Source: a virus (taxonomy: Duplodnaviria; Heunggongvirae; Uroviricota; Caudoviricetes). Taken from it: DNA of 20,767 bases. The DNA lies in IMG/VR virus record IMGVR_UViG_2547132272_000014. One strand, 5' to 3'. Shown piece by piece: positions 3,616-4,650 of the stretch. Every line of letters begins with the position of its first letter. Position 1 is the first letter of the stretch. The translations under genes and the position numbers were made by a program. The notes below the pieces were generated by a model. The model saw only the letters and a program-made list of their open reading frames with translations, did no database searches and was not told where the DNA came from.

Positions 3616-4650
3616 ATGAGCGACACAACGATCCTGCAAAACAGTACCCATGTCATTAAACCAAAAAAATCTGTGGCACTTTCTGGCGTTCCGGCGGGTA
3701 ACACCGCGCTTTGTACCGTAGGCAAAAGCGGCAACGACCTGCACTATCGCGGCTACGATATTCTCGATCTCGCAGAACATTGCGAATTTGAAGAAGTGGC
3801 GCATCTGCTGATCCACGGCAAACTGCCGACCCGTGACGAACTCGCCGCTTACAAAACGAAACTGAAAGCCCTGCGCGGTTTACCGGCTAACGTGCGTACC
3901 GTGCTGGAGGCTTTACCTGCGGCGTCGCACCCGATGGATGTTATGCGCACCGGCGTTTCCGCGCTCGGCTGCACGCTGCCGGAAAAAGAGGGGCACACCG
4001 TCTCCGGCGCGCGGGATATTGCCGACAAACTGTTGGCGTCGCTGAGTTCGATTCTTCTCTACTGGTATCACTACAGCCACAACGGCGAACGCATCCAGCC
4101 GGAAACCGATGACGACTCTATCGGCGGTCACTTCCTGCATCTGCTGCATGGTGAAAAGCCGTCGCAAAGTTGGGAAAAGGCGATGCAAATTTCGCTGGTG
4201 CTGTACGCCGAGCATGAGTTTAACGCCTCCACCTTTACCAGCCGGGTGATTGCGGGCACCGGCTCTGATATGTATTCAGCCATTATCGGCGCGATTGGTG
4301 CACTGCGCGGGCCGAAGCACGGCGGGGCGAATGAAGTGTCACTGGAGATCCAGCAACGCTACGAAACGCCGGACGAAGCCGAAGCGGATATCCGCAAGCG
4401 CGTGGAAAACAAAGAAGTGGTGATTGGTTTTGGCCATCCGGTTTATACCATCGCCGACCCGCGCCATCAGGTGATCAAGCGTGTGGCGAAGCAGCTCTCG
4501 CAGGAAGGCGGCTCGCTGAAGATGTACAACATTGCCGATCGCCTGGAAACGGTGATGTGGGAGAGCAAAAAGATGTTCCCCAATCTCGACTGGTTCTCCG
4601 CTGTTTCCTACAACATGATGGGCGTTCCCACCGAGATTGTGGGGTGGTGA
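3616..4650 (+). pseudogene. prpC: 2-methylcitrate synthase prpC, 3'-truncated by prophage insertion
   Basis: Translation matches PrpC (citrate synthase family) through ...[13 protein letters not shown]. As I recall it, intact PrpC continues [14 protein letters not shown]... for about 45 more residues; here the frame reads IVGW-stop, encoded by the first bases of the prophage end. Chromosome/prophage junction is at 4637/4638. Confidence 0.75.

What the first reader, a model, noticed from the sequence alone, without database searches (positions are those of the whole stretch)
3616..4650. Mu-like prophage inserted inside prpC, truncating 2-methylcitrate synthase
The prpC reading frame matches PrpC up to ...MMGVPTE and then diverges at base 4638, where the sequence becomes TGTGGGGTGGTGATCAATTCTGGGCGG and phage genes follow. 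About 45 C-terminal residues of the citrate-synthase fold are replaced by four phage-derived codons, so the 2-methylcitrate cycle is probably inactivated in this lysogen. Random insertion into a host gene is the hallmark of transposable phages. The intact PrpC C-terminus is quoted from memory.
Basis: partly seen in the sequence, partly recalled or inferred. Interest (0 to 1): 0.7.

Follow-up and report, generated by a model that had tools for sequence, protein, structure and literature searches.

The report
Mu-like prophage splits the prpC gene
A transposable (Mu-like) prophage has landed inside prpC of a wild Escherichia strain, cutting off the last 49 residues of 2-methylcitrate synthase and separating prpD and prpE from their promoter; this is a clear but textbook case of gene disruption by a mutator phage.

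Summary
Host DNA (yahO-prpR-prpB-prpC) runs to base 4637. From 4638 the sequence is the left end of a Mu-like transposable prophage (TGTGGGGTGGTGATC...). It continues to the end of the window.

Near-identical contigs without the phage (one mismatch in 4,608 bases) carry an intact 389-residue prpC that continues ...GAGAT|GTTCACTCC. The short PrpC is therefore not a natural variant. The same junction occurs in two independent assemblies.

PrpC keeps residues 1-340 and gains the tail IVGW. It loses 49 residues, not about 45, including two conserved arginines. The prophage also separates prpD and prpE from the sigma-54 promoter upstream of prpB. Loss of the 2-methylcitrate cycle is inferred, not tested.

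The host is probably Escherichia ruysiae.

Relatives of the phage, about 95% identical, sit in eight different E. coli genes. Each is flanked by a 4-bp duplication, not Mu's 5 bp. The predicted duplication here is therefore AGAT, not GAGAT.

The right prophage end lies outside the window. I could not find it in any collection, so the duplication and the rest of prpC remain unverified.

The 4-bp duplication is the only mildly unusual point.

The parts
1..29 (-). Terminal inverted repeat of an IS1 element. The source contig ends inside IS1. This is context only, not part of the prophage event.
   Evidence: Window 1-29 and the 98 contig bases before it are 100% identical to IS1 ends annotated in E. 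coli. IS1 is absent at this site in ERR273781 and in the contigs without the phage.
739..2325 (-). prpR, the sigma-54-dependent activator of the prp operon (528 residues).
   Evidence: Gene call and Pfam families PrpR_N, Sigma54_activat and HTH_8 on the identical contig L007.
2502..2517 (+). Sigma-54-type promoter motif TGGCATAGCCCTTGCT, 47 bases upstream of prpB.
   Evidence: one mismatch to TGGCAC-N5-TTGCW. The match count over the whole window is not above chance, so the assignment rests on its position and on the known biology of PprpB.
2564..3454 (+). prpB, methylisocitrate lyase (296 residues), intact.
   Evidence: The exact sequence is named methylisocitrate lyase [Escherichia ruysiae].
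3616..4650 (+). Truncated prpC ORF: PrpC residues 1-340 followed by I-V-G-W and a stop.
   Evidence: Pfam Citrate_synt matches only profile positions 2-327 of 357. The first 340 residues are identical to the intact 389-residue PrpC of the contigs without the phage.
4637..4638 (.). Host/prophage junction (attL side): the last host base is 4637 and the first phage base is 4638.
   Evidence: Alignments. The same junction is present in JGI 3300026224 and Logan ERR273781.
4638..4800 (+). Prophage left end: terminal 5'-TG, then three direct copies of TTCTGGGCG at 4655, 4729 and 4780. These are probably transposase-binding sites, laid out like Mu L1-L3.
   Evidence: family D1. The reverse complement GCCCAGAA recurs at the right ends of relatives. 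Binding itself is inferred.
4950..5600 (-). Repressor gene (216 residues), transcribed leftward as Mu c is.
   Evidence: Pfam Phage_CI_repr; phrog_3037 transcriptional repressor, E = 1e-59.
5769..6005 (+). Ner-like early regulator (78 residues).
   Evidence: Pfam HTH_35, E = 9e-26.
6005..8047 (+). MuA-type DDE transposase (680 residues).
   Evidence: Pfam HTH_Tnp_Mu_1 and Mu-transpos_C above their cut-offs, rve below its cut-off. phrog_310 transposase, E = 3e-195.
8066..8959 (+). MuB-like AAA+ transposition ATPase (297 residues).
   Evidence: Pfam AAA_22 and TniB; phrog_296 DNA transposition protein, E = 6e-103.
13814..14209 (+). GemA homologue.
   Evidence: Pfam GemA, E = 1.5e-18.
14644..15111 (+). 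Mor-family middle-operon activator.
   Evidence: Pfam Mor, E = 1e-6, above its cut-off.
15554..16675 (+). Lysis cassette: two holins (15554-16027 and 16002-16295) and an endolysin (16247-16675).
   Evidence: phrog_198, phrog_217 and phrog_465.
17098..20027 (+). DUF1804 protein (17098-17598), DNA methyltransferase (17645-18385) and large terminase (18387-20027).
20027..20767 (+). Portal protein, N-terminal 247 residues. The gene and the prophage run off the end of the window.
   Evidence: phrog_113, E = 2e-82.
4638..20767 (+). The prophage itself: its left 16.1 kb. Relatives are 35.7-37.5 kb long.

Best explanation
A Mu-like transposable phage inserted by DDE transposition into prpC of an Escherichia strain, probably E. 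ruysiae, between the second and third base of codon 341. It has remained there as a prophage. Its early genes point the same way as prpC. The insertion truncates PrpC after residue 340, and four junction- or phage-derived codons (IVGW) and a stop follow. It also places roughly 36 kb of phage DNA between the sigma-54 promoter upstream of prpB and the prpD and prpE genes. The lysogen is therefore expected to lack a working 2-methylcitrate cycle. It should fail to grow on propionate, be more sensitive to it, and be unable to make 2-methylcitrate, the co-activator of PrpR. What is shown: the breakpoint, the identity of both partners, the intact allele in near-identical strains, and the random-site, 4-bp-duplication behaviour of the phage family. 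What is inferred: loss of enzyme activity, polarity on prpD and prpE, completeness of the prophage, and the structure of the right junction, predicted as ...GAAGTTACA|AGAT|GTTCACTCC...
For: Breakpoint. Empty site: ten contigs with the same PrpB carry a 389-residue prpC followed by prpD and prpE, and the best are 99.98% identical to window 30-4637. The junction is seen in two assemblies that differ by one SNP and again in IMG/VR. Phage identity: MuA-type transposase, MuB-like ATPase, Ner-like protein, repressor, GemA, Mor, lysis genes, terminase and portal, in Mu gene order. The left end begins TG and carries three repeated TTCTGGGCG sites. Relatives that cover 83-89% of the query at about 95% identity, and are 35.7-37.5 kb long, lie in ycgB, hyfB, eutC, ypdF, an RHS gene, beside yfcC, in mhpT and in a molybdoenzyme gene. 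PrpC: the catalytic triad H235, H274 and D325 is retained (residues named in PMC9765439). Residues 341-389, including R350 and R369, are lost, as are the last 30 positions of the Pfam profile. From my own knowledge of pig citrate synthase, these arginines correspond to Arg401 and Arg421', which bind oxaloacetate. A sigma-54-like promoter lies only upstream of prpB.
Against: The right prophage end, the target duplication and the 3' part of prpC were never seen. The window and its parent contig (28.4 kb) both end inside the phage. Scans for the predicted right junction found nothing. No enzyme or growth data exist. Citrate synthase GltA has weak 2-methylcitrate synthase activity, so a trace of flux cannot be excluded. 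Two of the four contigs that carry the truncated PrpC were not shown, so how many biological samples carry the insertion is unknown.
Confidence: 0.92

Rival explanations
1. The PrpC of this lineage naturally ends at ...TEIVGW, so there is no disruption.
For: None beyond the existence of the ORF.
Against: Contigs with one or two mismatches in 4.6 kb carry a 389-residue PrpC that is identical over residues 1-340. The sequence after 4637 is the conserved end of a phage that is found next to unrelated genes elsewhere.
Confidence: 0.01
2. The junction is an assembly chimera that joins prpC to an unrelated phage contig in a metagenome.
For: The window comes from a metagenome contig (JGI 3300026224), and every contig carrying the junction breaks inside the phage.
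Against: The same base-exact junction is present in a separate Logan assembly of run ERR273781, which differs by one SNP and lacks the IS1 at the other end. The junction falls exactly at the conserved terminal TG of the phage, which a chimera would not be expected to respect.
Confidence: 0.03
3. The insertion is real, but the locus has been rearranged further. Either a transposition-associated deletion or inversion has removed or displaced the 3' part of prpC and prpD/prpE, or the prophage is only a truncated left-hand remnant.
For: The right junction predicted from relatives was not found in any collection. No assembly crosses the whole prophage.
Against: All phage ORFs in the 16.1 kb seen have the same lengths as in full-length relatives: repressor 651 nt, transposase 2043 nt, B protein 894 nt, large terminase 1641 nt. 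All eight relatives examined are simple insertions with intact flanks. The failed scans are uninformative, because the source strain is not in the genome collection and the phage's right end was not found in any contig of the source sample.
Confidence: 0.1

Closest known systems
Mu-like prophages of E. coli, for example the one in eutC of EPEC E2348/69 (NC_011601.1, 2715935-2751670) and those in strains M8, 2824 and Ec55
   Same: They belong to the same phage family. They cover 83-89% of the 16.1-kb phage part at 95-96% identity. The terminal sequences, gene order and gene lengths are the same, and they also insert inside host genes.
   Different: The insertion site (prpC) and the host (probably E. 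ruysiae, not E. coli) differ. The accessory region differs in part. The endolysin gene here gives at most 142 residues, whereas relatives carry a 181-residue glycoside hydrolase family 108 protein. No E. coli complete genome carries this junction.
Bacteriophage Mu (Escherichia virus Mu)
   Same: It works the same way. It has a MuA-type DDE transposase with the Mu DNA-binding and C-terminal domains, a MuB-like ATPase, a Ner-like protein, a repressor, GemA and Mor, TG...CA ends with repeated transposase sites, near-random insertion, and gene inactivation on lysogenisation.
   Different: There is no nucleotide similarity to Mu at megablast level, and Mu is not among the best transposase matches. 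The family's target duplication is 4 bp, not 5 bp. It carries a DNA methyltransferase next to the terminase gene.
Cultured phages with the nearest transposases: Pseudomonas phage VW-6B, Klebsiella phage ST405-OXA48phi1.1, Yersinia phage vB_YpM_Tongde, Mannheimia phage 3927AP2 and Haemophilus phage SuMu
   Same: Their transposases align over 92-99% of the length at 40-49% identity.
   Different: They are only distant relatives. No cultured phage in the collection is close at DNA level.

Membership tests
Mu-like transposable phages | A MuA-type DDE transposase next to a MuB-like AAA+ ATPase | tested here: met
   Pfam HTH_Tnp_Mu_1 and Mu-transpos_C above their cut-offs, rve below its cut-off; AAA_22 and TniB for the next gene. 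phrog_310 and phrog_296.
Mu-like transposable phages | Genome ends 5'-TG...CA-3' with several transposase-binding repeats | tested here: met
   The left end in the window begins TG and has three TTCTGGGCG copies. The right end ...GCCCAGAAAAAAACGCGAAGTTACA was seen only in relatives.
Mu-like transposable phages | Insertion at many unrelated sites, flanked by a short target duplication | tested here: met
   Eight relatives lie at eight different sites, each flanked by a 4-bp direct repeat. One empty site was verified at 96 of 96 bases. For the window itself only the left flank is available.
Mu-like transposable phages | Mu-type gene order: repressor leftward, then ner, A, B, an early region, gemA, mor, lysis genes and head genes; genome length about 36-39 kb | tested here: met
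   Gene order in the window. Relatives are 35.7-37.5 kb long. The length of the window's own prophage is unknown.
Mu sensu stricto (Mu, D108) | A 5-bp target site duplication | tested here: not met
   The duplication is 4 bp in 8 of 8 relatives. The fifth base does not match on either side in 7 of 8; in the eutC prophage of E2348/69 it matches on one reading. It could not be tested on the window's own insertion.
Mu-like transposable phages | Virion DNA carries variable host sequence at both ends (headful packaging from integrated copies) | not testable with these tools
   This needs sequencing of virion DNA.
PrpC (2-methylcitrate synthase, citrate synthase fold) | A full citrate-synthase domain with the catalytic His/His/Asp triad and the C-terminal arginines that bind oxaloacetate | tested here: not met
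   The triad H235, H274 and D325 is present (PMC9765439). However, the Pfam profile is matched only to position 327 of 357, and residues 341-389 with R350 and R369 are missing. The gene is a disrupted prpC, not a functional family member.
prpRBCDE propionate operon | Gene order yahO, prpR (divergent), then prpB-prpC-prpD-prpE | tested here: inconclusive
   yahO, prpR, prpB and the 5' part of prpC are in the window. prpD and prpE follow prpC in contigs of the same lineage without the phage, but they were not seen downstream of this prophage.

The most novel reading that the evidence does not exclude
This widespread Escherichia Mu-like prophage family may transpose with a 4-bp target stagger instead of the 5 bp (Mu) or 6 bp (B3) reported for transposable phages. 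That would make it an undescribed variant of Mu-type transpososome geometry. The duplication length itself is well supported here: 8 of 8 relatives plus one empty-site control. What is uncertain is whether it has already been described. I found no report in the searchable literature, but key papers in subscription journals were not searchable.
Probability: 0.4. Interest if true: 0.4.

Novelty: new member of a known kind. Interest (0 to 1): 0.25.

Why it matters
This is a clean natural example of a mutator phage knocking out a metabolic operon in a wild, non-coli Escherichia lineage, with the intact allele available in near-identical strains. Propionate is abundant in the gut, so losing the 2-methylcitrate cycle could change fitness and propionate sensitivity there. 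The biology of such insertions is textbook, however. The finding's practical value is as an annotation correction (prpC is a pseudogene and the phage is a transposable prophage). It also points to a family of Mu-like phages with 4-bp target duplications.

Tried and rejected
1. The right junction. The predicted pattern AAAAACGCGAAGTTACA-N{0,1}-AGATGTT was scanned in genome contigs and metagenome contigs, with no hits. The right-end 25-mer gave only three unrelated ENA contigs in metagenome contigs and seven isolate-derived contigs in viral contigs. The host sequence just after the breakpoint gave no hit in viral contigs. The left junction gave no hit in genome contigs, so the strain is not a species representative in that collection.

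I ran no further search on it, because cluster representatives at 90% identity would not give the exact sequence.

3. A 5-bp duplication was considered under every one-base shift of the phage ends and rejected.

4. Megablast against cultured phages found only a short Ead/Ea22-like mosaic segment, so no named phage is close.

5. Literature searches for a 4-bp duplication in Mu-like phages, and for target duplications of SuMu, found nothing usable.

6. The generic promoter and terminator scan around the junction gave counts no higher than chance. I draw no conclusion about read-through from prpC into the phage.

Full report
**Observation**

The ORF 3616-4650 encodes 344 residues ending ...[11 protein letters not shown]. 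A megablast of 3400-5900 against 5,426 complete E. coli genomes splits the query cleanly. Bases up to 4637 match prpB-prpC, at only 90-96% identity. Bases from about 4638 onward match a prophage found in a few strains, next to other genes.

A three-way alignment fixes the breakpoint. The window and intact prpC share ...CCCACCGAGAT. Intact prpC then continues GTTCAC..., whereas the window continues TGTGGGGTGGTGATCAATTCTGGGCGG. E. coli M8 has that same phage sequence preceded by ycgB.

**Is the short PrpC natural, or an artefact?**

An exact-sequence look-up of the window's PrpB found at least 24 contigs. Ten were shown, and all of them carry a 389-residue prpC followed by prpD; prpE was also called on all but one (L019). 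The closest differ from window 30-4637 by a single base in 4,608. They read ...GAGAT|GTTCACTCCACTG at the target site. Their PrpC is identical to the window's over residues 1-340. The lineage's PrpC is therefore full length, and the window's copy is interrupted.

The exact truncated protein occurs on four contigs. One is JGI 3300026224 contig Ga0209547_100059, which is also IMGVR_UViG_3300026224_000011. The window is bases 99-20865 of that contig, at 100% identity. Another is Logan ERR273781_26. It has the same junction but differs by one SNP (window 4842) and lacks the IS1 end present at window 1-29. Two assemblies agreeing to the base, at the conserved terminal TG of the phage, make a chimera very unlikely.

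**What the inserted DNA is**

From left to right the genes are:
- a leftward repressor (4950-5600);
- a Ner-like HTH_35 protein (5769-6005);
- a 680-residue transposase with the Mu DNA-binding and Mu C-terminal domains and a weak rve core (6005-8047);
- a MuB-like AAA+ protein (8066-8959);
- a string of small early genes, including DUF3164, DUF2786 and an Ead/Ea22-like gene;
- GemA and Mor;
- two holins and an endolysin;
- a DUF1804 protein, a DNA methyltransferase, the large terminase, and the start of the portal gene.

The first 160 bases carry three direct copies of TTCTGGGCG, at 4655, 4729 and 4780. The reverse complement of this motif recurs at the right ends of relatives. This layout resembles the L1-L3 and R1-R3 transposase sites of Mu. 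Binding itself is inferred.

No cultured phage is close at DNA level. The nearest transposases are 40-49% identical: Pseudomonas VW-6B, Klebsiella ST405-OXA48phi1.1, Yersinia vB_YpM_Tongde, Mannheimia 3927AP2 and SuMu. In contrast, 26 complete E. coli genomes hold prophages that cover at least 80% of the 16.1 kb, at about 94-96% identity. One of them is EPEC E2348/69.

**Behaviour of the family**

I read both ends of eight relatives.
- They are 35.7-37.5 kb long.
- They begin TGTGGGGT(A/G)GTG and end GCCCAGAAAAAAACGCGAAGTTACA.
- They lie in ycgB, hyfB, ypdF, eutC, an RHS gene, next to yfcC, in mhpT, and in a molybdoenzyme gene. This is the random-site pattern of a transposable phage.

In all eight the flanking direct repeat is 4 bp: AATG, CATC, CGCT, CACT, CTTC, GACA, ATTC and TTTG. 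No one-base shift of the ends gives a consistent 5-bp repeat. As a control, I joined the two mhpT flanks of strain CFS3292 with a single copy of ATTC. The result matches intact mhpT at 96 of 96 bases in many genomes.

The literature I could read gives 5 bp for Mu and 6 bp for B3-type phages (PMC8705779). The right junction should read ...GAAGTTACA|AGAT|GTTCACTCC...

**What could not be shown**

The window ends inside the portal gene. Its parent contig covers only about 23.7 kb of phage. Scans for the predicted right junction, for the family's right end, and for the host sequence just after the breakpoint found nothing from the source sample. The strain is not among the species-representative genomes.

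The target duplication, the 3' 147 bases of prpC, and the completeness of the prophage therefore remain inferred. A further rearrangement at the right side cannot be excluded. I give that about 10%.

**Consequences (inferred)**

Codon 341 (ATG) becomes ATT. Val, Gly, Trp and a stop follow. The catalytic triad His235, His274 and Asp325, named for Salmonella PrpC in PMC9765439, is retained.

Residues 341-389 are lost. The Pfam citrate-synthase profile is matched only to position 327 of 357. The lost segment, [34 protein letters not shown]..., contains R350 and R369. By the offset to E. coli GltA and to pig citrate synthase, these correspond to the oxaloacetate-binding Arg401 and Arg421' (the latter contributed by the partner subunit). 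That equivalence is from my own knowledge of the citrate-synthase literature and was not computed here. The closest solved structure is Salmonella PrpC, 3o8j.

A sigma-54-type motif, TGGCATAGCCCTTGCT, lies 47 bases upstream of prpB. This agrees with the known PrpR- and sigma-54-dependent promoter of prpBCDE. The prophage therefore also cuts prpD and prpE off from their promoter.

In Salmonella, 2-methylcitrate is the co-activator of PrpR (from my own knowledge). If that holds here, the lysogen should also fail to induce what is left of the operon, which argues against propionate-driven read-through into the phage. The expected phenotype is no growth on propionate and greater sensitivity to it. 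This is untested.

**Host**

The host part is only 91-96% identical to E. coli. The exact PrpB sequence is named methylisocitrate lyase [Escherichia ruysiae] / MULTISPECIES Escherichia by its sources. The lysogen is thus probably E. ruysiae, formerly cryptic clades III and IV.

**Verdict**

- 49 residues are lost, not about 45.
- The expected duplication is 4 bp (AGAT), not 5 bp (GAGAT).
- The right-end test is still open.

Gene disruption by a Mu-like prophage is what these phages are named for, and the phage family is already present, though unnamed, in many annotated E. coli genomes. This is a new instance of a known kind, of low to moderate interest. The 4-bp target duplication is the one feature that may be new to specialists.

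Noticed in passing
L003-L006 and L030-L037 (E. coli relatives); predicted for the window at 4634-4637: This Mu-like prophage family is flanked by 4-bp, not 5-bp, target duplications in 8 of 8 copies read. One empty site was verified at 96 of 96 bases. Papers I could read list only 5 bp (Mu) and 6 bp (B3) for transposable phages.
   Followed up: yes
window 1-29 (and the 98 contig bases before it, L007 1-127): The window starts inside the terminal inverted repeat of an IS1 element inserted upstream of yahO. This IS1 is absent from ERR273781, which has the same prophage junction, and from all contigs without the phage. The source strain has therefore gained at least two mobile-element insertions in this 5-kb neighbourhood.
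   Followed up: yes
window 3460-3600: The prpB-prpC intergenic region holds two REP-like palindromic units (for example GCCTGATGCGCCGCTGACGCGACTTATCAGGCCTAC and GTAGGTCGGATAAGACGCATGGCGTCGCATCCGAC). I recognised these by eye only.
   Followed up: no
window 12672-12888: A segment of about 215 bases in the Ead/Ea22-like early gene is 87-90% identical to phiV10, Stx-converting, P1 and other unrelated E. coli phages. It is the only DNA-level match to cultured phages and suggests mosaic exchange between a transposable phage and lambdoid or P1-type phages.
   Followed up: partly
window 16247-16675: The endolysin ORF gives at most 142 residues (phrog_465). The E. coli relatives annotate a 181-residue glycoside hydrolase family 108 protein at the same position. 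The lysis cassette may have been swapped or shortened.
   Followed up: no
L008 6744; L007 and the window's right end: Every assembly carrying the junction breaks inside the phage. ERR273781 breaks only 210 bases into it. This may reflect a second, related Mu-like prophage copy or strain heterogeneity in those samples.
   Followed up: no
L019 575-3220 (same lineage, upstream of yahO; outside the window): An 881-residue protein with no Pfam hit lies between the LysE-family gene and yahO in this Escherichia lineage. Several short-read contigs (L008, L026-L028) all break at the same point inside it.
   Followed up: no
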